Source: Eledone cirrhosa (taxonomy: Eukaryota). Taken from it: DNA of 64,000 nucleotides. Below the pieces are notes generated by a model, which worked only from the letters and a program-made list of their open reading frames with translations, was not told the DNA's origin and did not search any database. Made by a program: the position numbers and the translations under genes. The stretch spans positions 285,386,001-285,450,000 of the forward strand of contig OZ024741.1 in NCBI GenBank assembly GCA_964016885.1, given 5' to 3'. Numbering within the stretch: the first letter of the stretch is position 1; each line of letters opens with the position of its first letter. Shown piece by piece: positions 17,942-61,461 of this stretch.

Positions 17942-18153
17942 CGCATAGTATAGACGCTTACAACATCGGCTCCTGCCTTTTTGAATTTTTACCTATTGAC
18001 AGTAAGTGTTTGTTTCTTTATTGTGTTGTCTTCGTGTCTTTTGACCACCCGGCCAGGTCTGTAGACGGGTGGACATCGTATTTTTACCCCTTTTGGGGGT
18101 AAAAACTACTCCTAAAAATTTTTTGCTGACTCACATGGTAAAAAATTGACGCC

Positions 18154-19977
18154 ATGTCTGTAGCACGTGTGAACGAAAACGCCACGCTCACTAAGGAAGA
18201 AGAGAGAAAGAAGCAAGCGGTACAAAGCGCTTTGCTTTCCCGCGTCAACGTTTTAAAAGACATTGTAAAAGGCGATATGCCTGACAAACAAGTAAATACG
18301 GGTGCAAACCCAATTAATTACAACGAAAACACTAACAATAACAAAACCAACACACCAAATGAGAAAGACAACAACAACAAAAATGAAAATAACTCAAACT
18401 ACGAGAAAGAGAACAACGAGAAACAGAACAACTCAAACACCAACAACGAAAACAAAATATCTTTTGCACAGACTGCTAAAATATCAGTCACCTATGTGCT
18501 TGAGGATATAACAAATGCTAAAGAAATGCTTGAAAAAGCAAAAAAATATGTATCTTTTGGCAAAAATGGATCTTTTTCCATCAATTCGCCCCCAGAACTA
18601 AAAAAACAGAGGGAATTACGAACTGTTGTATTCCGTACAATTGCGAACAAAACAAGAAAACCAGCACAACCATCTCAAGCTGAAATTCAGTTGGTCCTGA
18701 AAGAGGCTATGAAAGATATAATTTTCATACAAAAGGATAAACTCTATGGGAGTTTATCCATATTGATGAAAGACGAATTGGCGGCGAAAAAATACTCTGT
18801 GTCGCCAATTCGTTCCACGCATTACACCTTTTTTCCAACCTACATGGGTAAAAAAACCCAAAGAATTTGGATAACCCCCATCACCCCAAACATAAACTAC
18901 TGGTGGTTACTAACCGGTTTCCTCAACTTGGACGAGGACAACCTTATATCAATAGGGAAGGCGTCCGGCGACGCGTTCAGTGGAACGAGCATTGAAGTTC
19001 TGACCCAAATAAGGCCAGAACGTATCGCCCAAATCCTTGAACGCGTCATGCTGGATGACCGTACCCACCTCAACATTATTGTGGAGGGTAGGCGTCCCTC
19101 ATGTTACCTCTGTGGTAACATAGGTCACCTGAGGGCTGCCTGTCCCCAGATCACACCGAAAAAACCATTGCTACCAACACCCTAACAACAACATCAAAAA
19201 CAACCAACGCCACCACCACTCCAACAACAACAACAAAAACAACCACAACAACAACAACAAAAACCAACAACACCACCACCACAACAACAACAAACACGAG
19301 AAAAAAACAACACAGAACACTGTCCCACCAAACCCCTCCCCACCCAAAACAAATAAAAAAACACACACACCGCAAACACTACCAGAAAATATACCCCTCC
19401 CACCCAACAAGGAAGACGAACCCCTTTCGTCGCAAGACGAAAAAGATCCCTTCAAAATAGTAAAAAGAAAGAAGAGGAGGCGCACCACAGACACACTTAT
19501 TAACATAAACCCTCCCCAAGAGAAAACAAACTATATACAAACCACCCCTCCTCTTCGCACAACACTAACTGGTACGCGAAAAAGAGACTTTACAATGTAC
19601 ATACATGAACACAAACAACAAAGAACTAATGAACACAATTTCATCAAACACTTTGGTCCAAACTGAAGGGCCTAACTTTCTAACTGCTGTGGGACTACCT
19701 CATTTAAAAATGGTTAAAGTCCCAATGAACTTGTTCAAAACATTGAAAATAAATTTCATGGAGGACGTGCCCCCCTCCCCCCCCCTGAACCAAGCCAATC
19801 AACCGCGTCCTCCTAAAAAATTCCCTCCCCCACCCAGGCACCCACTAAACTACAAACACCCCAACCCCACAACACACTGATGCCCCTACACTTCCACAAA
19901 CCACCACCCCACCCAACAACCCATCCCCTACCCTCATGGAAATTGAGAGGCCCGCTCCCCGGGGCGCAGAGAGGTAA
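18154..19977 (+). pseudogene. Tx1 ORF1 (gag-like, zinc knuckle), interrupted
   Basis: 343-aa ORF ending in EGRRPSCYLCGNIGHLRAAC. A Thr/Pro-rich continuation after the stop at 19185 runs to a TAA just before ORF2. Confidence 0.8.
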
Positions 19978-20001
19978 TTTCCTTTTCTCCTTACCACCAA
20001 C

Positions 20002-23000
20002 ATGGCCGCGTTGAGAGTAGGGTGTCTAAATGCGCGTGGCCTGGGCTCATATTGGAAGCAAGCAATGCTTCTAAATGACCTCAGGTCACAATGTATAGAT
20101 GTGATGGTTATCTGCGAGGCGCGGATCAGCAACGTGCGACAGCTGGCCCCCACCTTTGATGACTTTGAGATGCACGCATCTCTCTGTCAGCCCGGTGCTG
20201 GGGGTGGGGTTGTCGTTCTGCTGCAAAAACATCTGGGTCTCGCCACACAGATAGTTCACTTGGACCCAGGGGGTCGACTGGTGGTTCTGGACCTTGGCAG
20301 TGGTGAAGGTGGAGCCTTTAGGCTGGTAGCCGCATATGCCTCTTTTGGGACAGAGCGACCCGACTTCTTCCAGCGTCTGCAGTCTTTTCTAGGGAGGTCC
20401 CGTTCCCTGCTTTTAGTGGGGGACTGGAATGGTATCCTGGATGCACGTTAGAACTATGCAGGGTCATGTCCCAATAGAGAGGGGTGTAACAGCCTCAAGG
20501 AGTTACTCGGCCGATTTGACCTGGCCGATAGATTTCGACTAGATTTTCCGACTGTGCCAACCTGGTCTTGGTCAAACCGCAGTGGTCAATCTAGATCGTA
20601 CCTAGATAGGTTCTTAGTTAGAAATAAGGATAGGGACATTTTAAGTTGTCCAGAAATGCTCATGGCTGGCTATTCAAACCACAAGTTAGTGACCTGCATG
20701 GTCAACATTGATAGAACGCATAGACAGGGTCCCGTTACTGGAAGCTGAACTTGTCCTTACCGGCAAGTAAAGCTTACAGGGACCGGATTAGTTAAGGAGC
20801 GGTTGACTGGAGCGATCGTCAACAGCAGTTGGTGGGTATCTCTAAAGAGTGATTAGATTAGTCTCGATAGAATTTAGTAAGGTTTTAGCTGCGGATAGGA
20901 ATAGGAAGGAAAGGGAGCTGATAGGCAGAGTAGAAGAGGCAATTAGAAGCGGCGACGTGGCCAGAGTGCTAGCGTCAAGAACGGCTTTGAGCCAGTTTTT
21001 CGACGCGAAGCACGAAGGCTGCGTTGTCCGAAGTAAAATACGTGCTCTAGGAAACGAGGGGACCAAAGCTGATAGCTGGGCCCGCGTGACAGAAGCCAAG
21101 AGTGTAATTAAATCCACCATCCGGTCTTTGCGAGACCAGGATGGACGGGCGATCCTTGAACCTAAGCAGATGTGTGAGGCCTTTCAAAGGCACTTTGCCC
21201 GATTGTTCGGAAGGGACGGGGAGCCGGTTGGAGAAGTGGACTTAGGTCCATACCTCGACGGCCTGCCGCGTCTTTCGGACGAGGAGGCGAAGTCCTGCGA
21301 GGAGCCGATTTCAGCCGCTGAGATAGAGGACGGGCTGAGCCAATGCGGCAAACGCAAATCCCAGGGTCTCGATGGTCTTCCATACGAACTATATCTAGCT
21401 ATGCCGGACTTGTTCCCCGATCTCCTCGAGGCGGTCTACTGCAAATGGCAACATAACGGGAGAATTCCCTGTTCTGTGCACAAGGGCGTAGTCACGCTAG
21501 TGAGGAAGGACGAGAACAAGGGGATGAAATAAGTAACTTCAGGCTCATAACTCTGCTAAATACAGAGTTACACATTTTGGCCAATGTGTTAGCAAAGAGG
21601 TTGGCGCTTGCCGTGGGCAACCTGGTGGGAGATGCGCAGACATATGCTATCCCGTCCAGGTCCATCCACGACAACCTCTACCTCATGGATACATCATAGA
21701 GAGGGTTGGGAACGAACCCGGCTTTGGTGGGGCCCTGATCAACTTGAATCAATCTAAGGCGTTCGATAGGGTCGACCATGGTTACCTGGATGCGGTGCTA
21801 GCGGCGGTAGGCTTAGGACCCGTTTTCAGGGGCTGGATCAATGCTATGCACAGCTGAGACAATGCGGCAAACGCAAATCTCCAGGTCTCGACGGTCTACC
21901 CTACGAATTTTACGTAGCAATGCCAGACTTATTCTCCGGTCTCCTGGAAGCGGTCTACTGCAACTGGCAGCAGAACGGGAGAATTCCCAGTTCTGTGACC
22001 GGAGGCGTAGTCACAGTAGTCAGGAAGGACGAGAATAAGGGGGATGACATAGGCAACTTCCGGTCCATAACTCTGCTAAACACAGAGTTACAGATTTTGG
22101 CTAAGGTGTTGGCAAAGAGGCTGGCGCATGTTGTCGAGGACCTGGTGGGAGAAGCGCAGACATGCGCAATCCCGACCAGGTCCATACACGACAACCTCCA
22201 CCTCATGCGATACATCATAGAGAGGGTAGGGTGTAAACCCGACTTCGGTGGGGCTCTGATCAACTTAGATCAGTCTAAGGCTTTCGATAGGGTTTACCAT
22301 CGTTACCTGGATGCGGTGCTCGAGGCGGCAGGCTTCGGACCCATGTTCAGGGGCTGGATTGCTGCAATGCACAACAGCAACATCTGCTCAAGGGTCAAGG
22401 TGAACGGCTACCTCTCGGAGCCGTTCCATATCACGCGATCCATTCGACAGGGATGCCCTCTCTCCTCCCTTCTGTACGTACTGACTCTCGAGCCACTACT
22501 GCGGAAGTTGGAGCAATTGCAGAGCATCCCTCTGGAACCGGGACTGCGGAAAGCGGCGTCGGCCTACGCCGACGACGTGACAGTGGTGGTGTCGAGCACA
22601 TCGCAAATCTAGGAAGTCGGCATCTTACGGAAGGAATACGAAAGGTTCACAAGCGCGAAGCTGAACCGGGACAAGTCCATCGGTTTGCAACTCGCAACGT
22701 GGAGAGGCAAACCGATGTCTTCCGATGGCGTCGTCGGACGCTGGACGGAAGGACCGGTAAAGCTGCTCGGGGTTTGGTGAGAAGATCCATCTGCTGCCAA
22801 CACCCTTCCAACGGAGGGCTGGGGTTGCCGTGGCTGACGATGCGCAAACAGGTGCTCAGGCTGCGGCATCTCTACGTATTCCTCACCGGACAACCGGTGT
22901 GGGCCCTGTTCGTGAGGCGAGCCTTCCCACGACTCGTCTCGTTGACCGAGCTGTAGTCCTGGGTCAAGCAAAGACGGAGGAAAATGGGCGACTGGCACAT

Positions 23001-23709
23001 CGAATGTGCTCAGGCGCTCACAGCCCTCTGGCAGACGGCCCCGGCGATCAGTGGAGATTCTACTCCGTCATTCTACAGAGGGTTGATCCGCAGCAAGTGC
23101 GACGACGCGCTAGGTGAAACTCTAGGCGTAGAGGAAGATGAACTGGCCAGTCTGTTCGGTAGGACCATCCTCCCGGGACCGATGGACAACTTCCAAAAGT
23201 CCCTGGCCTGGAAGTTCTACTGAGGAGCTCTCCCAGTTCGAGACAAGCTCTACAGACATGGGCGCCCGGGCAGGAACCCTTCGAAAAGATCTGTCCGAGG
23301 TGCGTGCGAGACGAAGAAACCGTCGCGCACGCATTCATACACTGCCTGAGCGTTACCGACCTGTGGGGCTATGTAGAACAACTATTGTCGCGGGTGGGAC
23401 CAATCCGGTTGACCACCGAGTCCATTGTCATGATCAAACCGCCACCCTTCTTCAAAAAACGAAGGAGAGGCTGTTTTCCTTTGTGTGATAGCTAATGCGA
23501 AAGAGGTTGTATTGTGGACAAGGTTGAAAGGGCTGCGGTCAGACACCTTTCTCTCCGGCCAACAACTGATTCTTTTTTAAAAATACCACTTTGGAAAAAG
23601 AATCAGGATGGAGAGAGAGGTGCTGTACCCCAGCAAGTTTTATGAAAGGTGGGTGAAAGTGGCGAGAATGGCCCGAGTGAATGGGCCTTCTCTCTATATC
23701 AGCCTGTAG
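20002..23709 (+). pseudogene. Tx1 ORF2 (APE endonuclease, reverse transcriptase, zf-RVT), multiple stops/frameshifts
   Basis: LNARGL, VGDWN, SYLDRF, GLDGLPYE, LDQSKAFDRV, RQGCPLS, AYADD and ETVAHAFIHC. Confidence 0.92.
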
Positions 23710-28519: not shown

Positions 28520-28902
28520 CACATTTGAAAAGGAAAATCAGGGTGGAGAGAGAGAAGTGCTCCCTTCTCACCAATTTGTTGAAAGATGAGTGAGAGAGGC
28601 AAGCATGGACCGAGTGAATCGGCCTGCTCTGAGTATGCACCTAGATTGGAGGTGGAAACTGGGAGAAGGCACTTGCCCTGGTGGTCAGTGTCACCGAGGC
28701 TTTTTGTGGGCTTTCTCCAAGAATGACCCTCGGATGTTTCCTCTCCATTGGGAAATTTCATTTGTTTAATTTTTTTGTTACTTCCTTTGTTATTGTTTTT
28801 TGTCTTTACCCGCAGAAATGCCATTTGTACCGTCCCGTGCTGTCCTTAATGTGATACTTTATGTCAACCCATATGGTTAATAAAGAAAGCATTATTATTA
28901 TT
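28520..28902 (+). mobile_element. Tx1-type 3' fragment with (ATT)n tail
   Basis: Matches the minus strand of 54960-55340. Ends AATAAAGAAAGC-ATTATTATTATT. Confidence 0.8.
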
Positions 28903-30760
28903 GCAACTGGCAGCAGAACGGGAGAATTCCAAGCTCTGTGAACCGAGGAGTGGTGGGACTGCTGAGAAAGGACCCGGGATGACATAGATAATTTCAGGCC
29001 CATAAATCTGCTAAACACAGAGTTCAAGATTTTGGCCAACGTGCTAACAAAGGGGTTGGCGCTTGTCGTCGCTGGTCTGGTGGGAGAGGCGCAGACATGC
29101 GCCATTCCAGACAGATCTATCCACGACAACCTCATGCGATACATCGTGGAGAGGGTAGCTAGGGAACCTGGCACGGGTGGGTTCTTGATCAATTTAGATC
29201 GCTCGAAATTTTCGATAGGGTCAACCATTGTTATCTGGCGGCACTCCTGAGGGTGGCCAGCTTTGGGCCCGTCTTCAGAGGCTGGATCACTACCATGCAC
29301 AGCGACATCTGTTCTGTGTTGAGAGTGAACGGTCACCTTCCAGAACTGTTCAGCATCATGCGTTCGGTCCACCAAGGAAGTCGGCTCTCGTCGGTGTTGT
29401 ACGTTTTGACTCTCGAACCATTACTGCACAAACTAGAGACGTTGAGGGTGTCCTGCGCGAACTGGGATGCGGGAGAACTGTGTTAGCATATGCCGACGAC
29501 GTCACCGTTGCGGTGTCGAACGCCAAACACATCGAAGCGATCGGCACCACACTACGAGAATACGAGGTGGTGACAGGAGCAATAATCATCCAGGAAAAGT
29601 TGCGACTCGGCACCTGGAGAGACAGCTCCATGCTGTCCAACAGCATTGTTGAGCACTAGAAGGATGGATCGGTTAAATTGCTAGGGGTCTGGTTCGGTCC
29701 GGACCTCCAGACGAACAAAAACTGGGACGAGGTGACGAGCAGGGTGGGTTCTCTCACCCAGAAATGGGCCGAGAGGAAGCTATCCCTGAAAGGTCGAACA
29801 TAGGTGGGGAACCCGTACATTGCGTCCGTCATCTACTACCGCCTGACCATCGTGCCTTGTCCTAAGCCTCATCAGACAGCGCTGGAGCGTTTGGTCTTTC
29901 GCTTTTTGTGGAAGGAACGCGCTACGATAGCCAAGCGTCAACACCCGCTGTCAACACACGCTACGTGGAGTGCTGGGCATGCCGTGGAAAATGATGCCAC
30001 GGCATTTCCACCTCTTCCTCGACGGTGATCAAATGTGGTCACCGTTTGCTAGAGGCGATATTCCCCAGCTAGTCTCCATGACGGAGCTGCAGTCCTTGGT
30101 CAAGTGAAGACCAAGAGGGGGCGCTTGGAGATTGGAATGTCTTCAGGCGCTCATAGCCCTCGACCAATCGGACGATGTGATCGGTGGAAACTCCACCTTG
30201 GCGTTCTATAGAGGGTTAGTGGAGGGAAAGAGCGACGATGTCCTTAGGGAGACTGTGGGCGTCGACGAACATCAACTAGCTCATTTCTTCGGGAGAACTT
30301 TCGGGCCGGGGCCCATGGAGAACTTCCAGAAATCCTTGGCCTGGCACTGCTACCGAGGAGCTTTGCCAGTTCGGGATAAACTCTACAGACATGTAAGTGC
30401 CGTAACCGGGCCTATCGCAGATGCGCGCACGGCGACGAAACCGTCCTGCACGCACTCGTCCAGTGTCCGAGCATTGCTGACTTGTGGGTTTATGTCGAAC
30501 ACCTGTTGTCGCGTGTAGGACGGATCCAGCTATCACCCAAGTCCATTGTGAGGATTGCTCCACCGCCTTCCTTTAGCCGGGAAGAGCAGGAAGTTTTTAT
30601 CTGCCTGGTGGCCATGGCGAAAGAAGTCGTGTGGTGGATGCTTTTGAAAGGGCTGAAGACAAGCACTTACCTCTTCGATGATGCCCTGATTAATTTTTTC
30701 AAATTTCATTTGAAAAGGAAAATCAGGGTGGAGAGGGAAATGTTTTCTTCCCAGCATAAC
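28902..30760 (+). mobile_element. Tx1-type ORF2 fragment (RT to C-terminus), decayed
   Basis: GEAQTCAIPDRSIHDN, AYADD and FQKSLAWHCYRGALPVRDKL. Starts directly after the (ATT)n tail of the previous copy. Confidence 0.9.
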
Positions 30761-30799
30761 TGGGGGTGAGGGTGGTGGTTGTTTTGTTATTACAAATAA

Positions 30800-37399: not shown

Positions 37400-40300
37400 C
37401 GATACCAACTAACAGCACTGCGATCAAATGTGGCTTTTTAGCCCAGCCAATGATCTAAAATGTCTTGCACAGAGTCGGCAACCAAAACATTCACTGGGAA
37501 TAGTCGGCTGTGGTTGGAGTTCATGTACTTTTGTATGTCGCTTGAGCCCTCCTGCTGATTTACATTCTCTACCACATGCTTGGCAAGCACGATGAGTAGC
37601 ATCTCTAACAGCAGCCTGGTAGTCAACCACTGGTCTTACTTTATGACTGCGAAGATGACTTTCGAGTCCAGCCTTGCTTAGGCAGAGTCTCGCACAGACG
37701 CTGCATGTCACCACCATAGGAGGACCCTCGCCGTCTGGAAGTGAAACAGCAATGCCCTTCCTCACATCCCGCTTTACTTTCTCGTATGCGATTCGAGATG
37801 CCTCAAACAACTTTTCCCTCATATACAGTCTTTCTCCATTTATTACGATCAGCAGTAATATTTTCCCATTTATGGGCAGAGATGTTAGCGTCTTTCAAAG
37901 AGGCTTTCAAGGAATCCTTATACCTCTTTTTTGTTTTATGTGGCGGTCGTTTTCCTTTAATTAACTTTCCATAAAAGAGTTGTTTTGGTATTATAGAATC
38001 CTTCATCCTGGCAAGGTGACCACTCCGACGGATTCGTTGCTTAAGCACAAGAGCTTCTATACTGCCACACATAGAGCTTTCCAAAATCTCGACATCACTG
38101 ATGTGGTCCCTCCAGTGAACGCCATGTATCCGTCTGAGACACATCTGATGGAAACGCTCCAATTGTTTAAGGTGGTGTCGATATGTGACCCAGGTCTCGC
38201 AAGCATAAAGAAGACAAGAGAGCACACATGCCCTGTACACCTTTACCTTTGTCCTCCTGCATATGTCTCGCCGACCCCAGAGTCGCCTTTCTAGATTTCT
38301 GAAAGCATCACTTGCTTTCCTAATCCTAAGTGAGATTTCACTATCAAGGTTGCTGTATCGATTGGCAGTGCTTCCCAGGTAGACAAACTGATCAACCACT
38401 CCAAGTCGTTTACCATACACAGAGATATTTGGTTCAGTGTACTGCTTACCAGGGGCAGGTTGGTACATGACGACGGTTTTCTTGAGACTGACAGTCAATC
38501 CTAGGGCAGTGCAAGCGTCAGAAAATGCATTCAAAATGTGCTGCATATCACTCTCTGTATGCGCTACAAGATCGCAATCATCTGCATACAAGAAGTCTCT
38601 TATGATTGATGTAAATACTTTTGTCTTTGCAGCAAAGCACCTGATGTTAAATATGCTGCCTGAGGTTCGATATCGGATGTAAACACCTTGCTCGCAATTC
38701 CTGAATACAATACAGAAAACCATTGCAAAGTATATGACAAACAGGGTCGGTGCTGGAATATCCCCTTGTTTCACTCCATTTTTTACTAAGATAGGCTCCG
38801 ACATGTTACCTCCGACATTAACCCAAGCCTTCATGTCGTCATGGAAAGATCTAACTAAAGCAAGGAACTTATCAGGGCAACCAAGTTTCTGGAGAACCTT
38901 CCATAATGCATCTCTGTTAACAGTATCGAAAGCTTTTGATCGACAAAAACCTGATACTGATCCAAACCTTGTTCCATGCATTTCTCCTGGAGCTGTCTAG
39001 CGGAGAAGATCATATCAGTAGTGCCGCGTCCAGCACAAAAACCAGATTGACTTTCAGGAAGAACACAATCTACAATGTGTGTCAGCAGACAGTACAGAAG
39101 CACCCTACATAAAACTTTCCCTACGACAGAAAGCAATGATATACCTCTGTAGTTCCCACAATCATTCCTGTTACGCTTTCCCTTGTACAAGACAACTATT
39201 ACTGCATCTCTCCAGTCCTCAGGTACGGATTCATTAGCCCATATCCTGCCAAACAAAGAGTGAAGATGTTGCAGGAGTCTCTCACCACCATATTGTAGGA
39301 GCTCAGCATGTATGCCATCCATACCTGGAGACTTTCCACTGTTCAGCTTCAAGATAGCCACTGCAACCTCCACAAGCGTCGGAGGTTCTGCGAGAGCTAC
39401 TTTCACAGGACTTTCTGGAATGAGATTGAGGAAATCTTCACTGACGACAGACGGCTGATTCAAAAGATCATCAAAGTGCTCTCGCCACCTTCGTAGAATT
39501 CCTTGTGAGTCACGAAGAAGTTCTTTGCCATCCTTGCTGCGAAGCGGTGTCGCCAGAGAAGAAGACGGTCCATAAACCTCACGCAAGAGACTGTACAACA
39601 GCTTTGTGTTATTGGAATCTGACGCTGTTTGTATCTCACCAGCCTTCTCAATCCACCACTGATCCTTCATCTGAGAAAGACTCCGCCTAACACGTGATTT
39701 TACATCCTTGAGTTCCTCATGCAACGTATTCCTCTCCTGTGGTTTTGCCGTCAAGTAGCGTGACAGAGCACGCCTCTTATCAGCCAACAAGTCTTCTATA
39801 TGTACATCATTCTCATTAAACCAGTCCTGATGTTTTCTCTGCACTAATCCTAGAACACGCCTGCCTACATCATAAACCGACTTTTTAAGGGTCGGCCAAT
39901 CCTCACCAAGATCTGCAGCCTTCATCTCTTCTTCCAATGTCCTCTTCACATTTTTATCCTTAAGACGAGCAGCATTCAATCTTTTGGGCAGGGCAATACC
40001 AGGAGCCCGGATTTTACGTTTAGTGATTAGTTTCACTTTTGCGCGTACCAGGCGGTGGTCCGTCCAGCACTCAGCTCCACGAAGAGCACGAACACACTGC
40101 ACATCCTGTCTGTCACCACTCCTGACTAGGACGTAGTCCAAAAGATGCCATTCCTTAGATGCAGGATACATCCATGTGGTCTTGAATTTGTTCTTTTGTT
40201 GGAACATGGTGTTGGTAACACACAGATCCAGCTCCTCACACATCTGCAGCAGGAGCATACCATTGTTGTTACACTTTCACACCCCATGCATTCCGATTAC

Positions 40301-40880
40301 ATTCCATGTGTTAAAATCCCTACCCACTCTAGCATTAAAGTCACCAAGCACGATGACTTTGTCTGCCTGAGGGATATTTCTTAAAACAACTTTCAAAGCA
40401 TGGTAAAAGGACACTTTTTCTTCATCGACAGAATTCATAGTTGGAGCATACACACTCACCAGGGTCGTATATCTTCCTTTGTTCAGCTGAATTCTCATGG
40501 ACATAAGACGCTCACTAATCCCTACTGGGAATTCTTCTAATTTATTCACAAGAACAGTCTTAACAGCAAATCCTACCCCAGCCTCTCTTCTGGTTCCTTC
40601 ATCTCTTCCTTTCCAGAAGAATGTATACTCTCCACAAAATTCTGTAAGATGAACATCTCCAGCTAACCTCGTCTCAGATAAATCCACGATGTCAAGATCG
40701 TAACGTCGAAGCTTCTTTGCAACAAGAGCGGTCCTTCGTTCAGGACGCTCCAAGGAATCCCTGTCAAGCAGCGTCCATACGTTCTAGCAGCCAAGACTAA
40801 ATGCCTTGTTTGGCTCTATTACAATGGCACGATGACGAGCGGGCACAGGCTGTGATAACCTGGGGCCCCTGCCCTTATTG
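37400..40880 (-). mobile_element. RTE-clade (BovB-like) LINE, near full length, frameshifted
   Basis: APE motifs LGC*NVWTLLD, RPERRTALVA, LSETRL and LGDFNARVG. RT motifs KSPGMDGI, NYRGISLLS, KAFDTV, GVKQG and FLYADD. C-terminal C2H2 fingers; the 3' end abuts (GT)n. Confidence 0.93.
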
Positions 40881-46019: not shown

Positions 46020-46162
46020 GTAAGGTGTATTGGTTGTGTCATACGGTCCAATAAACTTTTGTTCTCCAATTCTATTTATGGGAACAGCTAGATGATGTAA
46101 AACGGAATATTTGTATCAAAATAAAGATCAGAAGGCATGGTATAAATTTCCAATCATTTTAA

Positions 46163-46236
46163 TCACGACACATGTTTCAATAAGAGATAGGTCGATCGTG
46201 CGGCCATGATCGATTATCACTTATCTCCTCAGGTGA
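46163..46236 (-). ncRNA. Type-I hammerhead in an element (~46020-46459) flanked by (TA)n
   Basis: Minus strand: TCAC-CTGAGGA (46226-46232), long stem II GATAAG..TCGATC..GATCGA..CTTATT, GAAA, CATGTG, TC, GTGA. Confidence 0.85.
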
Positions 46237-46456
46237 AAATGAATTGTCTTCAAATCCTTGATATGAGGGAGAAAATTTAACGATGTTCACTCACTTTTTT
46301 CCCCCATATGAAGATTAAGTAGCCAAAACACGCCGACTGCTATCGTCCTCAGTTAGGGTCATAAAACTATCAAGTCTCCATCTCTCAATAACTGTAAAAG
46401 ACGCTGGACGGGTCTAATCTCAACATCAAATCTTTAGAATTACAGTCGGTCGGTCA

Positions 46457-46647: not shown

Positions 46648-46778
<131 letters not shown>

Positions 46779-46783
46779 ATATA

Positions 46784-46814
<31 letters not shown>

Positions 46815-46874
46815 CGGGTCTTCGATTTTCAGCCCCATGGATTTTATCTATTACATTCACTTATTATATTTCGA

Positions 46875-46932
46875 ATACCTGATGATATCACCGGATTCAT
46901 ACAGAACCCGGTCATTGAAATGATCATAGTAT
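46875..46932 (+). ncRNA. Type-I hammerhead, 5' pLTR
   Basis: ATAC-CTGATGA (46879-46885), stem II ACCGG/CCGGT, GAAA (46917-46920), TGATCA, TA, GTAT. Confidence 0.85.
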
Positions 46933-49557
46933 AATAAACCTTTCAAGGATTTACACAAGTCCAGCCTGCTGTCATTTCATTATAATATTTAACTCCGTAC
47001 TAGCACCACCAACTACAAAAACAAAGACGGTTGAACTGCTTTACGTTGAGTACTCTCCATATTATTACATTAAGATTGACCATACGGAATTGACCAGCTC
47101 TATCCAGTGGTGAACCTCAAACCTGAATAAATAATGCTCCTGTAATGTTGAGCACTTACAAATGTAATAATGAACAGCGGCATGGGACTGAATATATCTA
47201 ACCACCATTCGTATTTTGGCTACTCAATGTTTTTGCCTACCGCCCACCTGGCCCATTGCTACCTCCCTCTCAGAATATTCAGACTTCGACGAAATTCTAC
47301 GGACTATACCATAACATGTATTGTATTGTACTGTATTGACTAAATTCGCTACCCTATACTTCAGGGCCTGTGTAACTCACACTAAATCTCAGACTCGAAC
47401 ACACACTGATTCCATTTCCACATCTATATGCATTATCTGACTGCAACTTGAACTATATTGTATTTCTCCTGTGTTTTGATCTCTCCATTTACTCCACCAC
47501 CACTCTTGTTTGTTTATTTATATCTTTATATCTTTCTACCTTTGCTGTATTAATGTTTTTTCCACGTATTCTACTTCTATACATCCATGTACTTTTTACT
47601 CCTCTTATTCAGACTTTTACTCGCGTGTACCCATTAGCACACGACACTGGAATGTCTCCCACTGGGAACATAAATACTGCAACCTGAACTATATTGTACT
47701 TCTCCTATGTCTTGATTTCTCCATCTTACTCCAACACCACTCTTGTTGGTTTATTTATATATTTATACCTTTGCTTTATTAATGTGCTTTTCCACGTATT
47801 CTACTTCTATGTGTTCATGTATTTCTACTCCTCTTATTGGGACTTTTACTCACTTGCACACGACACTAGAATGTCTCACCCTGAGAACAAAAATAAATAT
47901 TACCCGATTATATCCCTTACTCTACATCCCACTAGGATAACTTATAGAGGATCTATATAATACAATTAACGTTTCTTCATAAAAGACTCTCTTTAACTAA
48001 ACCTCGCAACTCAAAACCTTAAAAAAGTTTTTTTAATTTTTTAAATGTTTAATTTTCAATGTTCTATTTGTTCAATTCTCAATCTTCTTACTCTTTAATT
48101 TTATAATGTTATTCTGAATTCTTTCAACTTCATCCTATATATCTAAACTATATTTTAACGTTCCAACTTTCTGTCGGACTGTTGGGTTGGTTTTCCTGGC
48201 GGCGGGACCGGCCCCCTGGCGCATAGGCCTACCTTGAGTGCTTGGAAAAATAAATTTCCCCTTCTTTCGGTAAATGAAACTACTCGGAGTGGATTGATTC
48301 GCCCCGGGGGCCCGACGCGCAGCGGTTTTTTGACCGCCATATAGTACCTTTAAATTACAGATCAAATCAGAACTATTAGATGTATCACGCCTCCCTCTAC
48401 TTAAGCAAATCCCCCTCCTGGGTAAAGGAATAGTACTGGTTTTGTACAAGGATGGCCTAACGATGCGGGCTGACTTCCTGCTGGCGCACCTGAAGCCTGT
48501 TATACATTCCTAGAGTGCTCGGAAAAATCGATTTCCATATCTTTCGCTAGGCGATATCACTCGGAGTGATGGGCTGCGCAAGCTTGTGGTCGCCGCATGC
48601 TGTTTGACGGCTAAACAAAGACATAATCTTTACTCTATAATAAAATTTAAGTTTCTTCATAAAAGACTCTTTCTTTGCTTAAACCTCGCAACCTTAAACA
48701 TGTTAAACTGTTTAACTTTCAATTTTCTAATTTCTTTAATATTATAATGTTAATATTAAATATTAATCTTTAACTTCATCCTATAAATCTAAACAAAAAT
48801 GTAACGTCCCAATCTTCTGCTCACACATTATAACATACAGACCCACACTATATTTACCTCTGCTAAGATACGGGTCCCTTTAAAAATATTTTTTCGCGCC
48901 ATTCCTGGCCTGACTGTAGTCTGACATTAATATCGATCTTTCTTCCTCTTTCTTTCTATCTTTCTTCTTGTAGCCATCAAACCTGACTTTTCTTCTTCTT
49001 CCTTTTCTTCTTCTCTTCCCCCTTCTTTCTGTCTTTCTCCTTGTGGCATGATATTAACGCTGACTTTCCTCCCCCTATTTGTTTGCCTATATTTGACCGG
49101 TAGTAGTTGTTAAGATACGGGTCCTTTAGAATAAATTTTTTTCGCGACTTTCCTGGCCTGACTGTAATACCGACCTTTCCTCCTCTTTTTTTCTGTCTTT
49201 CTTCTTATAGCTGACATTAACCCTGATTTCTCTTCTTCTTCCTTTTCTTCCTTCCCTCTTCTTCTCTCTTCTTTCTTTCTTTCTTTCTTTCTTTCTTTTT
49301 CCTTCCCCCTTCTTCTTCTCTCTTCTTTCTTTCTTTCTTTATTTTTTCTTGTGGCACGATATTAACGCTGACTTCTGTTCATGTTCCTATCCCTTTCTGT
49401 TTTCCTTTATTTGACCGGTAGTAGCAAACTGTAAGCTTTAGCCACGTCACTTGAGGGCGACCGGCAAAGGTGGAAGATGCTGGATGGCGGTCGTCCTCGG
49501 GTCTTCGATTTTTAGCCCCATGGATTATATCTATTACATTCACTTATTATATTTCGA

Positions 49558-49615
49558 ATACCTGATGATATCACCGGATTCATAAGGAACCCGGTCATTG
49601 AAATGACCATAGTAT
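49558..49615 (+). ncRNA. Type-I hammerhead, 3' pLTR
   Basis: CTGATGA at 49562-49568, GAAA at 49600-49603, TGACCA, TA, GTAT. Confidence 0.82.
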
Positions 49616-49813
49616 AATAAACCTTTCAAGGATTTACACAAGTCCAGCTTGCTGTCATTTCATTATAATATTTAACTCCGTACTAGCACCACCAACTACA
49701 AAAACAAAGACAGTTGAACTGCTTTACGTTGAGTACTCTCCATATTATTACATTAACATTGACCATACGGAATTGACCAGCTCTATCCAGTGGTGAACCT
49801 CAAACCTGAATAA

Positions 49814-49876
<63 letters not shown>

Positions 49877-54961: not shown

Positions 54962-56868
54962 TTTCTTTATTAACCACAAGGGTTTACATAAAGTAGACAT
55001 TAAGGACAGTGCAGGACAATGCAGGACGGTACAAATGGGCATTTCTGCGTGTAAAAAACAAAAACAGAGAATGTAACAAAAAATAACAATGAAAAATTCC
55101 CCAATAGGGGGGAGACTTCGGAGGGACATTTGTGGAGAAAGCCCAGTAAAAAGCCACAATGACCCTGACCACCAAGGCAAGTGCCCTCTCCCAGTTTTCC
55201 ACCTTTACTTTACAGATATATGCTCAGAGTAGGCCCATTCACTCGGGCCATTCTTGCTTCTCTCACCCATCTTTCAACAAAATGCTGGGAAGAGAGCACT
55301 TCCCTCTCTACTCTGATTTTCCTTTTCAAATGAAATTTGAAAAAGTCAATCAGAGCATCACCGAAGAGGTAAGTGCTCGTCTTCAGCCCTTTCAAACGTG
55401 TCCACCATACTATCTCTTTCGCCATGGCCACCAGGCAGATAAAAACTGCCTGCCCTTCCCGGCTAAAGGAGGAGGGCGGGGCAATCCTCACGATGGACCC
55501 AGATGATAGCCGGATCCGTCCTAAACGCGACAGCAGGTGTTCGACATAAACCCACAAGTCAGCAATTTTCGGACACTGGACGAGTGCGTGCAGGACGGTT
55601 TCGTCGCCCTGCGCGCATCTCGGACATGCCCGGCTGACGGCACCTCCATGCCTGTAGAGTTTATCCCGAACTGGCAAGGCTCCTCGGTAGCACTGCCAGG
55701 CCAGAGATTTCTGGAAGTTGTCCATAGGCCCTGGCCCGAAAGTTCTTCCGAAGAGATTGGCTAGTTGATTTTCGTCGACGCCTAGAGTTTCCCCAAGTAC
55801 GTCGTCGCTCTTCCCCTCCACTAATCCTCTATAGAACGCCGAGGTGGAGTTTCCACCGATCACATTGCCCGATTGGTCGAGGGCTGTGAGCGCCTGAAGA
55901 CATTCCAGTCTCCAGGCGCTCCCTCTCGGTCTTCGCTTGACCCAGGACTGCAGCTCCGTCAAGGAAACGAGCTGGGGAAACACGCGTCTAGCAAACGGCG
56001 ACCACACCTGATCACCGTCGAGGAAGAGGTGGAGATGTCGTAGCCTGAGCGCGTGCCTGCGCATCATCAGCCACGGCATGCCTAGCCCTCCACGTAGCGG
56101 GTGTTGACAACAGATGGACCGCCTGACCATCGGAGCGCGTCCCTTCCACAAAAAGCGAAAGAGCAAACGCTCCAGCACAGTCAGGCGAGGCTTAGGACAA
56201 GGTACGACGGTCAGGCGGTAGCAGATGACGGACGCGATGTACGCGTTAGCCACCTCCGCTCGACCTTTCAGGGATAGCTTCCTCTCGGCCCATTTCTGGG
56301 TGAGAGAAGCCACCCTGCTCGTCACCTCGTCCCAGTTTTTGTCCGTCTGGAGGTCCGGACCGAACCAGACCCCTAGCAATTTAACCGGTGTGTCCGTCCA
56401 GCGTCCGACGACGCTGTTGGACGGCATGGACCTGCCTCTCCAGGTGCCGAGCTGCAGGCCCACTGACTTTTCCTGGTTGACCATTGCTCCTGTCACCGCT
56501 TCGTATTCTCTTAGTGTAGTGCCGAGCGCTTCGATGTGTTTGGCGTTCGACACCACTACGGTGACATCGTCCGCATATGCTGATACGGATCTTCCGCATC
56601 CTAGTTCGCGCGGGACCCCCCTCAACGTCTCCAGTTTGTGCAGTAATGGCTCGAGAGTCAATACGTACAAGAGGGACGAGAGGGGACATCCTTGGCGGAC
56701 CGAGCGCATGATGTTGAACGGTTCCGACAGGTGACCGTTCACTCTCACCACAGAGCAGATGTCGCTGTGCATGGCAGCGATCCAGCCTCTGAAGACGGGC
56801 CCAAAGCCAGCCGCCCTCAGGACTGCCGCTAGGTAACGATGGTCGACCCTATCGAAAGCTTTCGACTG
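54923..56868 (-). mobile_element. Young 5'-truncated Tx1-type LINE, open ORF2 from QSKAFD to stop, (ATT)n tail
   Basis: Uninterrupted frame 55210-56868 with RQGCPLS, AYADD and CPRC..ETVLHALVQC. Plus-strand (AAT)n at 54923-54959 and TAATAAT at 56869-56875. Confidence 0.93.
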
Positions 56869-56875
56869 TAATAAT

Positions 56876-57310
56876 AGAACACAATAGACCTGACCTGGTG
56901 GTTGTGGACAAAGAAAAAAGATCGTGCCTGATTGTGGATGTGGCCTGCCCATTCGACACGAGAGTGCAAGAGAAGGAGAGGGAGAACATTAACCGATACC
57001 AGGACTTAAAGTGGGAGGTAAAAAGGATTTGGAACTGCCATGAAGTCAACGTGATCCCGATTGTCATAGGCGCACTAGGGACTATCTCAAAAAGTTTCCA
57101 GGGATGGTTAAAGAAAATTGGCCCCTTCACGCTTTTTGGAACGCTTCAAAAGGATGCTTGCTAGGAACAGCAAGAACCCTCCGATGCGTCCTGAATATCT
57201 GAGGCTGCAGGTAGTGGCTTGATATTCATTTCAACAAACTTTCCAGTTAACTAACATCAATGACTGAGACTCAAAGAGTAATAACAACAGTAATACTAAT
57301 AATAATAATG
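56876..57310 (+). mobile_element. R4/Dong-type RLE 3' fragment in (TAA)n
   Basis: EHNRPDLVVVDKEKRSCLIVDVACPFD..IVIGALG. Same 3' UTR as 14280-14345, with TAA repeats on both sides. Confidence 0.87.
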
Positions 57311-59587: not shown

Positions 59588-59670
59588 TATATATATATAT
59601 ATAAATATACGTGGGAAAGTAAAAAAGTAAAAAATCAGAGAATAGACCGTTAAAACATGTTTATTTAAAA

Positions 59671-59715
59671 TATCACCTACGTACGTTTCGCCCAGTTGGG
59701 CTTCTCAAGGGCATA
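59671..59715 (-). ncRNA. Hammerhead variant (U3-A8 core), sense to the GIY-YIG ORF
   Basis: Reverse complement of 61152-61196. Confidence 0.78.
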
Positions 59716-60010
59716 AATAATCACAAGTGTTCCTTATATAGTTCGGAAAGAGTTTTGGGGGTTAAATCTACATCAAGATTCATTGCTCGCAAAAATATCT
59801 TGTTTTGATTTTGCAGCAGGTCAAGGGAGGTAACTCTGGCCGGTGTTAGGGCAGTCTTTCCCGGATAATTTTTTTTTTTTTTTTTTTTTTTGCCGCATCC
59901 GTTTGTCTGAGGCTGGGTCTGGTATGCAAGGATTGTTTTCTGGGTGTTATTTTGCTGCGCCCGCCCGCCGGGGTGTTAAGATTTGTTGCAGGGAGATCCA
60001 GTGTACTATT

Positions 60011-60712
60011 TCACTCTTCATTCTTAACCCATCTAAAGAAGGATATTTTTAAGCGATGTGTACAACTTATCGCTGTTTTAGCTCTGCTGTTGATGAGCTC
60101 GTGGGGTGCAGTTATGATGTGGTAGAGCTCCATGAGGCAAAGATCGCATTTCCTCTTGAAGTTGTACGGTGCAGCCCTGCCGACAATCTCCCAGTGCGTG
60201 GAGAAGCTGATGTTTAAGTCCTTTAGTGATGTGATGTAGTCCGCGAGCGAAGTGGAGTGCCTTAGTTTTCTATTTGTGAAAGAGTGGAGATGTGTTCGAA
60301 ACCTAATTTTGAACGGGCCGGAGGTGGCCCCTATATAATGTTTAACGCTATTGTGGCTAGTAATAGTGCATCTATATATAACCCTATCAGTCAAGCAGTA
60401 TCCTCTAAGGAGGCAGCGTCCTCTGTCGCGGTTCCGTCTATTTCCCACGGTAAGGCTATCATTGTTGCTGCCTACGTTGTTACCTACGCTACCGCAGCTG
60501 TCGTTAGCACAATTACAACCCACAGCACGCGGGATGGTGCGATTGTTATTCCGCACGTCATGTTCTGCATGTTCCCCAGTCACTTCGCGGTCATTCTGGT
60601 TGCGTCTGCGGATGCCGTTGCCAACACTATTGGATGCTGTCAGGGAGTTGTTAAGTCCGATATAGTTATTGTCAGGTGTAGGTGCGTCTGTGTCGAGGTG
60701 CTGTGTCTTGGT
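60011..60712 (-). CDS. PLE GIY-YIG endonuclease C-terminal fragment (Hydra-clade-like)
   Basis: CNC..CLLRGYCL..VIY..HYIGATS.PFKIRF.TH..SF..TSLADYI..LK..WEIV..CDLCLME..LINSR..CTHR. Confidence 0.85.
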   Translation of the reverse strand, partial: TKTQHLDTDAPTPDNNYIGLNNSLTASNSVGNGIRRRNQNDREVTGEHAEHDVRNNNRTIPRAVGCNCANDSCGSVGNNVGSNNDSLTVGNRRNRDRGRCLLRGYCLTDRVIYRCTITSHNSVKHYIGATSGPFKIRFRTHLHSFTNRKLRHSTSLADYITSLKDLNISFSTHWEIVGRAAPYNFKRKCDLCLMELYHIITAPHELINSRAKTAISCTHRLKISFFRWVKNEE

Positions 60713-61151
60713 GATCTTACTGTGGTTCGTAACTGATCTTACTGTGGTTCATAACTGCACCCCACGAGCTCATCAACAGCATAGCTGAAACAGCGATAAG
60801 TTGTACACATCGCTTAAAAATATCCTTCTTTAGATGGGTTAAGAATGAAGAGTGAAATAGTACACTGGATCTCCCTGCAACAAGTCTTAACACCCCGGCG
60901 GGCAGGCGCAGCAAAATAACACCCAGAAAACAATCCTTGCATACCAGACCCAGCCTCAGACAAACGGATGCGGCAAAAAAAAAAAAAAAAAAAAAAAATT
61001 ATCCGGGAAAGACTGCCCTAACACCGGCCAGAGTTACCTCCCTTGACCTGCTGCAAAATCAAAACAAGATATTTTTGCGAGCAATGAATCTTGATGTAGA
61101 TTTAACCCCCAAAACTCTTTCCGAACTATATAAGGAACACTTGTGATTATT

Positions 61152-61196
61152 TATGCCCTTGAGAAGCCCAACTGGGCGAAACGTACGTAGGTGATA
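61152..61196 (+). ncRNA. Hammerhead variant (U3-A8 core) in the inverted pLTR
   Basis: CC-TTGAGAA (61159-61165), GCCC-AACT-GGGC, GAAA (61178-61181), CGTACG, TA, GG. Confidence 0.78.
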
Positions 61197-61404
61197 TTTT
61201 AAATAAACATGTTTTAACGGTCTATTCTCCGATTTTTTACTTTCCCACGTGCTTACGCTCTGCTAACTCTCTAGCCCACTAAATATTAACACTTCGAATA
61301 TTTAATACTGCCGGCACTAGTATCGAGCACCTTTGGCATATGCTACTTGGCATATAACTATATGTATCACCTATCCCTCCTTTTTCTCTTTCTCGATACG
61401 TAAA

Positions 61405-61461
<57 letters not shown>

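What the first reader, a model, noticed from the sequence alone, without database searches (positions are those of the whole stretch)
46814..49817. Complete ~3 kb retrozyme-like element predicting a 2683-nt (possibly circular) RNA
Seen: two near-identical direct ~320-bp repeats, each with a hammerhead (predicted cuts after 46928 and 49611, 2683 nt apart). The core is non-coding and built of internal duplications (47441/47677, 47970/48652, 48862/49110), with (TA)n on both sides. Known: retrozymes are cut by tandem hammerheads into monomers that circularise, and described animal ones are usually a few hundred nt. Inference: an unusually large retrozyme or non-autonomous PLE mobilised by a PLE RT. 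The 3' copy has lost loop palindromy (TGACCA vs TGATCA).
Basis: partly seen in the sequence, partly recalled or inferred. Interest (0 to 1): 0.8.

Follow-up and report, generated by a model that had tools for sequence, protein, structure and literature searches.

The report
Large hammerhead-bearing Penelope parasite family
This 3-kb stretch is one copy of an abundant, non-coding jumping element that likely borrows the enzyme of Penelope-like retrotransposons; its copies end at two fixed sites, one per end, each beside a small predicted RNA stem shared with protein-coding Penelope elements, while the proposed circular RNA remains untested.

Summary
The repeats, hammerheads, duplications and (TA)n flanks are real. 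The 320-bp repeats are not fixed LTRs. They are the variable overlap of a 5'-truncated, longer-than-unit copy of a family with 6,480 exact hammerhead matches in this genome.

Units are non-coding and 1.9-3.1 kb long. Copies end in (TA)n at one of two fixed sites about 145 nt apart. In 53 of 54 classifiable inverted insertions, one end uses each site.

Each site lies about 7-15 nt before a predicted stem, RCTC...GAGYRC. Five protein-coding Penelope-like families here have the same pair of stems. This makes it a non-autonomous, Neptune-type Penelope-like element (about 0.9); the exact partner was not found.

Both repeats of a copy derive from one template. Only 1 of 141 5' ends lies near the hammerhead cut, so reverse transcription reads through that site. 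An uncut transcript with a strand jump (0.5) fits slightly better than a 2683-nt circle (0.3). No RNA run was listed.

It is a new variant of a known kind. The scan noted smaller Penelope-type hammerhead elements in other genomes.

The parts
46778..46814 (.). (TA)n target microsatellite, 5' side
   Evidence: 87 of 98 LONG or SHORT ends in the first locus set abut (TA)n
46815..47134 (+). Upstream pseudo-LTR (terminal overlap), 5'-truncated at the 3' foot of the GC hairpin; lacks the hairpin and the TCACT site
46875..46932 (+). Type I hammerhead, 5' copy; palindromic stem III ATGATCAT; U.U at 10.1-11.1; predicted cut after 46928
46979..46986 (+). SHORT end site, about 51-58 nt after the cut (read through in this copy)
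46992..47053 (+). Stem module 1 (ACTCC...GTTGAGTAC, 62 nt), just 3' of the SHORT site
47128..47130 (+). LONG end site in the upstream repeat (read through here); several copies have their 5' end just after it
47136..47155 (+). Stem module 2 (GCTCC...GTTGAGCAC, 20 nt), shared with five coding PLE families
47135..49497 (+). Non-coding core, about 90-96% identical in the closest other copies
47440..47895 (+). Tandem duplication (about 236 + 220 nt, 81%), not found in the older 1.9-2.1 kb units
47953..48173 (+). Duplicated segment, partner at 48633-48819 (66%)
48185..48563 (+). GC-rich block kept in older subfamilies (66-69%), with a 60-nt repeat at 48232/48509; promoter role is only a guess
48861..49424 (+). 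Pyrimidine-rich duplications (48861-49038 / 49108-49284, and a partial third copy to 49424)
49447..49451 (+). TCACT, initiator-like; hot spot of 5' ends in the family (possible RNA start)
   Evidence: Inr-like TCACT in a rotifer pLTR, PMC3846280
49453..49499 (+). GC hairpin with compensatory changes between subfamilies
   Evidence: z -5.18; 6 of 14 pairs change on both sides
49498..49817 (+). Downstream pseudo-LTR
49558..49615 (+). Type I hammerhead, 3' copy; palindrome broken (TGACCA); predicted cut after 49611
49675..49736 (+). Stem module 1, 3' copy (inside the tail of about 145 nt)
   Evidence: by the 2683-nt offset
49811..49817 (+). LONG end used by this insertion; AT microhomology into (AT)n
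49810..49874 (.). (AT)n target microsatellite, 3' side

Best explanation
This is one dispersed copy of a high-copy, non-coding family whose members end in (TA)n at two fixed sites, and it is likely a non-autonomous Penelope-like element copied in trans by a Neptune-type RT-endonuclease that would prime from both nicked target strands, one strand at each site. Shown: copy number, the two ends, one end of each kind per inverted insertion, the two stem modules shared with coding PLEs, a common source for both arms, and read-through of the hammerhead cut site. Inferred: a dimeric enzyme docks one subunit on each RNA stem and starts cDNA about 7-15 nt upstream of it. Inferred with less support: the template is a transcript starting near TCACT (49447) with an uncut 5' hammerhead. 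RT started in the first pseudo-LTR either stops at the RNA 5' end, giving the many 220/365-nt arms, or jumps to the same sequence in the second pseudo-LTR and goes round again, giving longer-than-unit copies with matching repeats. The hammerhead is under constraint, but its role (RNA dimerisation, or cutting the 3' end) is not shown.
For: 6,480 exact 16-mer matches, control 0. Inverted pairs: 31 of 31 classifiable are LONG+SHORT, with 6 more having odd ends. In the first 60 loci of contig C1, 22 of 23 are LONG+SHORT, with 3 more having odd ends (p 3e-6). The coding PLE in the same window shows the same pattern: 9 LONG+SHORT pairs, a 157-nt tail, (TA)n targets. Modules lie at +64/+208 after the cut in the element, +53/+143, +56/+149, +58/+154 and +61/+144 in four coding families, and +68/+232 in a fifth; ends cluster just before them, though only 3 ends were held for one family. 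Two modules arose in 0 of 20,000 shuffles. The motif pattern gave 291 hits, control 0. Arms of one locus disagree at family-polymorphic sites in 12 of 130 (tandem) and 26 of 229 (inverted) cases against 35% between loci. Both window repeats carry a G found in 1 of 74 other arms. 1 of 141 5' ends lies in the 10-nt bin of the cut. About 30 of 184 arms stop 1-9 nt before the hairpin. In vitro, a PLE protein nicks and extends both strands, starts internally at two sites, is predicted dimeric, and does not need hammerhead cleavage (PMC11167929).
Against: No coding family sharing the whole pseudo-LTR was found: 0 of 60 unbiased loci had an ORF directly upstream, and two pattern hunts returned only family members (48 and 79 hits). 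One SHORT+SHORT pair exists (L153). Many inverted insertions have two arms that overlap by more than 1 kb of sequence (L048, L049, L054, L068), which needs strand displacement or a second RNA. The stop at TCACT could reflect hairpin protection of a cDNA end and not an RNA start; its enrichment over neighbouring bins is only about threefold and several anchors are doubtful. Hammerhead conservation (3 of 62 columns differ between subfamilies against 33 of 229 elsewhere) is only p 0.05 and partly built into the search pattern. If one subfamily is active at a time, arm concordance would follow without a single template molecule.
Confidence: 0.55

Rival explanations
1. Giant retrozyme: both hammerheads cut, the 1.9-3.1 kb monomer is ligated into a circle, and the PLE RT copies the circle from the two internal sites, going round one or more times.
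For: Repeats within a copy share alleles and rare variants. Head-to-tail junctions are exact. L050 holds about 2.7 units. Four LONG-ended arms stop at p305-315 and one SHORT-ended arm near p165, which is one full turn; six genuine 5' ends lie at p305-315 against about 0.6 expected. The hammerhead is conserved without an ORF. Circles were proposed for PLEs in PMC4209133 and shown for small animal retrozymes in PMC7229834.
Against: A circle has no 5' end, yet 5' ends cluster at TCACT. PLE-type hammerheads cleave poorly (PMC4209133), and this one has U.U at 10.1-11.1. Uncut RNA was the main substrate of a PLE in vitro (PMC11167929). The strand-jump model also predicts the full-turn stops and the matching repeats.
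Confidence: 0.3
2. Two linear transcripts of one master locus are held together through the palindromic stem III; each is primed once, one at the LONG and one at the SHORT site; tandems arise by jumping between the two RNAs.
For: It explains arms that overlap by more than 1 kb without displacement. The palindrome duplex is -7.2 kcal/mol and nearly invariant. Palindromic stem III loops recur in the other hammerhead families of this genome.
Against: Abutting arms point to one molecule: a LONG arm stops at the SHORT site in L030, L045, L064, L065 and L226, and a SHORT arm stops at the LONG site in L034 and L051.
Confidence: 0.12
3. It is a coding PLE whose ORF has decayed or been deleted, or a local duplication with no mobility of its own.
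For: It shares cis-motifs with coding PLEs at the position where their ORFs begin, so descent from one is likely.
Against: No protein similarity remains. The non-coding core is itself multiplied, at 91-100% identity in the top 40 matches on many contigs, and has evolved as non-coding subfamilies 65-85% alike.
Confidence: 0.03

Closest known systems
EN+ Penelope-like elements, Neptune type (PMC8557442, PMC3846280, PMC11167929, PMC2377424)
   Same: 5' truncation, partial tandems forming pseudo-LTRs, inverted 5' arm, tail at one end, hammerhead in the pseudo-LTR, AT-rich or microsatellite targets.
   Different: No ORF. The tail is about 145 nt, not the 30-40 bp described. The one-end rule is near-strict here, where the papers say 'optional' or 'often'. 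The paired stem modules were not found in the passages read.
Animal non-LTR retrozymes (PMC7229834; bioRxiv 10.64898/2026.07.22.740005)
   Same: Non-coding unit with a type I hammerhead, low GC (38%), head-to-tail repeats, proposed PLE dependence.
   Different: Unit 1.9-3.1 kb against about 300 bp, or 51-972 bp in a survey whose repeat finder was capped at period 1000. Mostly dispersed truncated copies and partial tandems, not arrays. PLE-type and not canonical hammerhead. No circle shown.
Non-autonomous Chlamys PLEs such as MRC1; pLTR-flanked non-coding captures in Adineta (PMC8557442, PMC3846280)
   Same: Protein-free PLE derivatives moved in trans, with pseudo-LTRs and head-to-tail copies.
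   Different: Chlamys lack canonical hammerheads and generally resemble their partner at the 3' end. Here only short motifs are shared with coding families, and the lineage has its own old subfamilies.
Plant LTR retrozymes (PMC4918200, search listing; as summarised in the preprint)
   Same: A non-coding core between two hammerhead-bearing direct repeats.
   Different: Those have type III hammerheads, fixed LTRs, PBS/PPT and 4-bp TSDs. Here the hammerhead is type I, the overlap is variable and inverted arms are common.

Membership tests
Non-autonomous PLE | Dispersed multicopy family without coding capacity | tested here: met
Non-autonomous PLE | Fixed 3' ends, variable 5' truncation, partial tandems forming pseudo-LTRs | tested here: met
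Non-autonomous PLE | Inverted 5' arm with a tail at one end only | tested here: met
   53 of 54 classifiable pairs
Non-autonomous PLE | Type I hammerhead in the pseudo-LTR | tested here: met
   motif present and helices 94-99% paired in 41 rows; activity untested
Non-autonomous PLE | AT-rich or microsatellite target | tested here: met
   87 of 98 and 74 of 81 LONG or SHORT ends abut (TA)n
Non-autonomous PLE | Autonomous partner sharing the terminal sequence | tested here: inconclusive
   only the two stem modules and the geometry are shared with five coding families; the best match is 85% over 34 nt; no whole-pLTR partner
Non-autonomous PLE | Target-site duplication | not testable with these tools
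   insertion into (TA)n hides it
Animal non-LTR retrozyme | Short (about 50-1000 bp) unit | tested here: not met
   hammerhead spacings 1979-3102 bp in 18 loci; 1904 and 2056 bp in an older subfamily
Animal non-LTR retrozyme | Tandem units each with a hammerhead | tested here: inconclusive
   partial tandems are common among full-length copies and L050 has three repeats; most copies are short truncated arms
Animal non-LTR retrozyme | Self-cleavage and accumulation of monomeric circular RNA | not testable with these tools
   no RNA holder listed
Plant-type LTR retrozyme | Type III hammerhead in fixed-length LTRs | tested here: not met
   type I; overlap length varies between copies
Neptune clade (for the candidate partners) | C-terminal GIY-YIG preceded by a Cys-rich motif | tested here: inconclusive
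   the motif CNC..CPL precedes a GIY-YIG-like stretch (Pfam GIY-YIG only E 0.09); no tree was built

The most novel reading that the evidence does not exclude
The family replicates through a 2-3 kb hammerhead-ligated circular RNA, several times larger than any animal retrozyme in the papers read. A dimeric Penelope RT docks on its two homologous stems and copies it from both target strands at once, so that tail, inversion and pseudo-LTR all come from twin priming on one circle.
Probability: 0.28. Interest if true: 0.82.

Novelty: new variant of a known kind. Interest (0 to 1): 0.56.

Why it matters
How Penelope-like elements make their tail, inverted arm and pseudo-LTR, and what their hammerhead does, is stated as open in PMC8557442, PMC2377424 and PMC11167929. 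This family gives countable rules: one long and one short end per insertion, a conserved stem behind each start site in six families, arms that stop at each other's start, and almost no ends at the ribozyme cut. These are direct targets for the existing in vitro system. It also shows a long-lived, kilobase-size, protein-free PLE parasite of a size that a tandem-repeat screen capped at 1 kb would miss.

Tried and rejected
Rfam at gathering score gave 0 hits; at E<10, 7 weak chance hits. ARAGORN found no tRNA in 9 of 9 loci, so this is not one of the tRNA-bearing PLE parasites noted elsewhere in the scan.

RNA evidence: no RNA holder listed; this is no evidence on expression. Two of the three runs were laid. 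They are contigs of unknown kind from one sample and cannot show RNA ends.

Partner hunts: the coding PLE in the window has a different hammerhead and no DNA similarity beyond the modules. The 3' regions of other PLE fragments near family copies did not match. Patterns keeping stems I and III but changing stem II returned only family members. L166 and L132 looked like ORF-linked copies but are separate neighbours.

BLAST starts at unit position 2314 first looked like 5' ends. Part of that was an artefact of a roughly 40-nt deletion in the window's subfamily, so the 22-count bin is not used. One search's census double-counts the hairpin and is not used either. In one search, L045 and L050 were dropped from the p297-317 group because an insertion sits at that junction. 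The single LONG+LONG pair for the coding PLE is a read-through arm, not an end.

Free-energy folding does not give the active hammerhead as the minimum (-4 against -16 to -18 kcal/mol); this is usual for such motifs and was not used. A fixed-LTR reading was rejected. No earlier scan note matched by sequence or in this genome.

Full report
Observation. All listed features are present at the given coordinates: repeats of 321 nt at 97.5% identity 2683 nt apart, two type I hammerheads cutting after 46928 and 49611 by prediction, three internal duplications, (TA)n flanks and a non-coding core. The host is an unnamed 3.0-Gb genome. That it is an octopod is my recollection from its repeat content and was not tested. 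Below, p1-p320 means window 49498-49817.

Family. The terminal 320 nt gave 2,332 first-look candidates, of which 40 were scored, at 97-100% identity. The 5' core gave 560 candidates, of which 40 were scored, at 91-100%. A 16-nt hammerhead pattern has 6,480 exact matches with a control of 0. I fetched 38 of the 40 core hits and the first 60 unfetched loci listed on contig C1. Hammerhead spacings in 18 tandem loci are 1979-3102 bp. An older subfamily has units of 1904 and 2056 bp that are non-coding and lack the large duplications, so the window's unit likely grew by internal duplication. The upstream repeat is of any length, from a few nt to about 1960 nt. It is a pseudo-LTR, as defined for PLEs in PMC8557442 and PMC2377424 (passages read).

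Two ends. Copies end in (TA)n either about 55 nt (SHORT) or about 200 nt (LONG) after the cut. In inverted insertions, 31 of 31 classifiable pairs are LONG+SHORT, with 6 more unclassifiable; part of that set was selected for a LONG end. In the unselected C1 set, 22 of 23 are LONG+SHORT, 1 is SHORT+SHORT, none is LONG+LONG, and 3 are unclassifiable. The coding PLE in the window (about 59600-61407; 927-928-aa ORFs in L129-L131) behaves alike, with a 157-nt tail. A 30-40 bp tail often at one end is known (PMC8557442, PMC3846280, passages). Two internal RT start sites defining the tail were shown in vitro (PMC11167929, main text read).

Paired stems. Each end site lies about 7-15 nt before a stem RCTC(C)...GAGYRC: 46992-47053 and 47136-47155. 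A pattern for the second stem gave 291 hits with a control of 0; 50 of the first 100 listed are this family by their loop sequence, and most of the rest are coding PLEs. Five coding families carry both stems at the matching places. The closing pair changes from A-U to G-C between the modules. These ORFs have a Cys-rich motif before a GIY-YIG-like end, which suggests Neptune type (no tree was built). This is the firmest link to a partner class, but no family shares the rest of the pseudo-LTR. I did not find the paired stems in the texts read or in searches; supplements were not read, and subscription papers and Repbase are outside the library.

Template. Arms of one locus disagree at 11 polymorphic sites far less than arms of different loci: 12 of 130 and 26 of 229 against 35%. 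Across 269 arms, 22 rare variants are shared by both arms of a locus and 285 lie on one arm. The window's repeats share a G seen in 1 of 74 other arms, and their 8 differences fall outside the polymorphic sites. So they were likely identical at insertion, and TGACCA is later decay. Of 141 5' ends, 1 lies in the bin of the cut, 6 genuine ones lie at p305-315 and 5 at p158-172. Arms thus tend to stop at the other primer's site or after one full turn. About 30 of 184 arms stop 1-9 nt before a covarying GC hairpin, at an initiator-like TCACT.

Hammerhead. Helices are 94-99% paired in 41 rows, with A-U/G-U exchanges but almost no two-sided change; the hairpin, not the ribozyme, carries the covariation. 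3 of 62 columns differ between old and young subfamilies against 33 of 229 elsewhere (p 0.05, partly ascertained). The family has U.U at 10.1-11.1; one subfamily has A-U. It resembles the palindromic-helix-III PLE variants, which cleave poorly in vitro (PMC4209133, results and discussion read).

Mechanism. Shown: a mobile non-coding family with PLE insertion marks. Inferred: trans-mobilisation by a Neptune-type dimer docking on the two stems (about 0.9 for the class of element, less for the docking). Open: an uncut linear RNA with a jump from its 5' end (about 0.5), a covalent circle (0.3), or two paired RNAs (0.12). DNA alone cannot separate the first two. For this locus a 2683-nt monomer is less likely than for the family: the 5' repeat lacks the hairpin and TCACT, and the two palindromes mismatch.

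Comparison. It works like a PLE and meets the structural tests for a non-autonomous PLE, with the partner unidentified. It fails the size test for animal retrozymes: about 300 bp in PMC7229834 (passages), and 51-972 bp in bioRxiv 10.64898/2026.07.22.740005 (abstract to discussion read; its repeat finder was capped at period 1000; supplements not seen). That preprint already argues that animal retrozymes derive from PLEs, and PMC4209133 already proposed circles for PLEs. An Octopus vulgaris repeat paper has no mention of 'ribozyme' or 'non-autonomous' in its main text; the search for octopus with hammerhead ribozyme listed nothing on this.

Verdict. Real; a new variant of a known kind; interest 0.56, mainly for the one-end rule and the paired stems.

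Noticed in passing
window about 59600-61407: Inverted insertion of a very abundant coding Penelope-like element (55,687 first-look candidates for its endonuclease region), with a variant hammerhead core (CUUGAGA) and SHORT/LONG ends 157 nt apart; open 927-928-aa frames in L129-L131.
   Followed up: yes
window 46021-46456 (-): Another hammerhead-bearing fragment between two (TA)n runs, just upstream of the element; unrelated in sequence.
   Followed up: no
window 2967(+), 7591(+), 34665(+) and many fetched loci: At least ten further type I hammerhead families with palindromic stem III; several share a C.C or C.U mismatch at the fourth position of stem II (read by eye).
   Followed up: partly
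L147:362-1472: Three hammerheads spaced exactly 555 bp apart: a candidate ordinary short tandem retrozyme.
   Followed up: no
L262:1389-5327: Tandem coding PLE with a 3938-bp unit and a long AT-rich 3' region; its second stem is the closest match to the element's (85% over 34 nt).
   Followed up: partly
L045, L050, L183, L251: A similar insertion of about 130-210 bp of a common repeat sits at the pseudo-LTR/body junction in three family copies and in one coding PLE; the site may be a preferred target.
   Followed up: no
L208, L209: The older units each contain about 100 nt that match a repeat found elsewhere, so their basic length may be a little shorter.
   Followed up: no
window 18142-23495, 28800-30770, 37800-40783, 55210-56988: Several broken LINE-type ORFs (endonuclease and RT motifs recognised by eye).
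   Followed up: no
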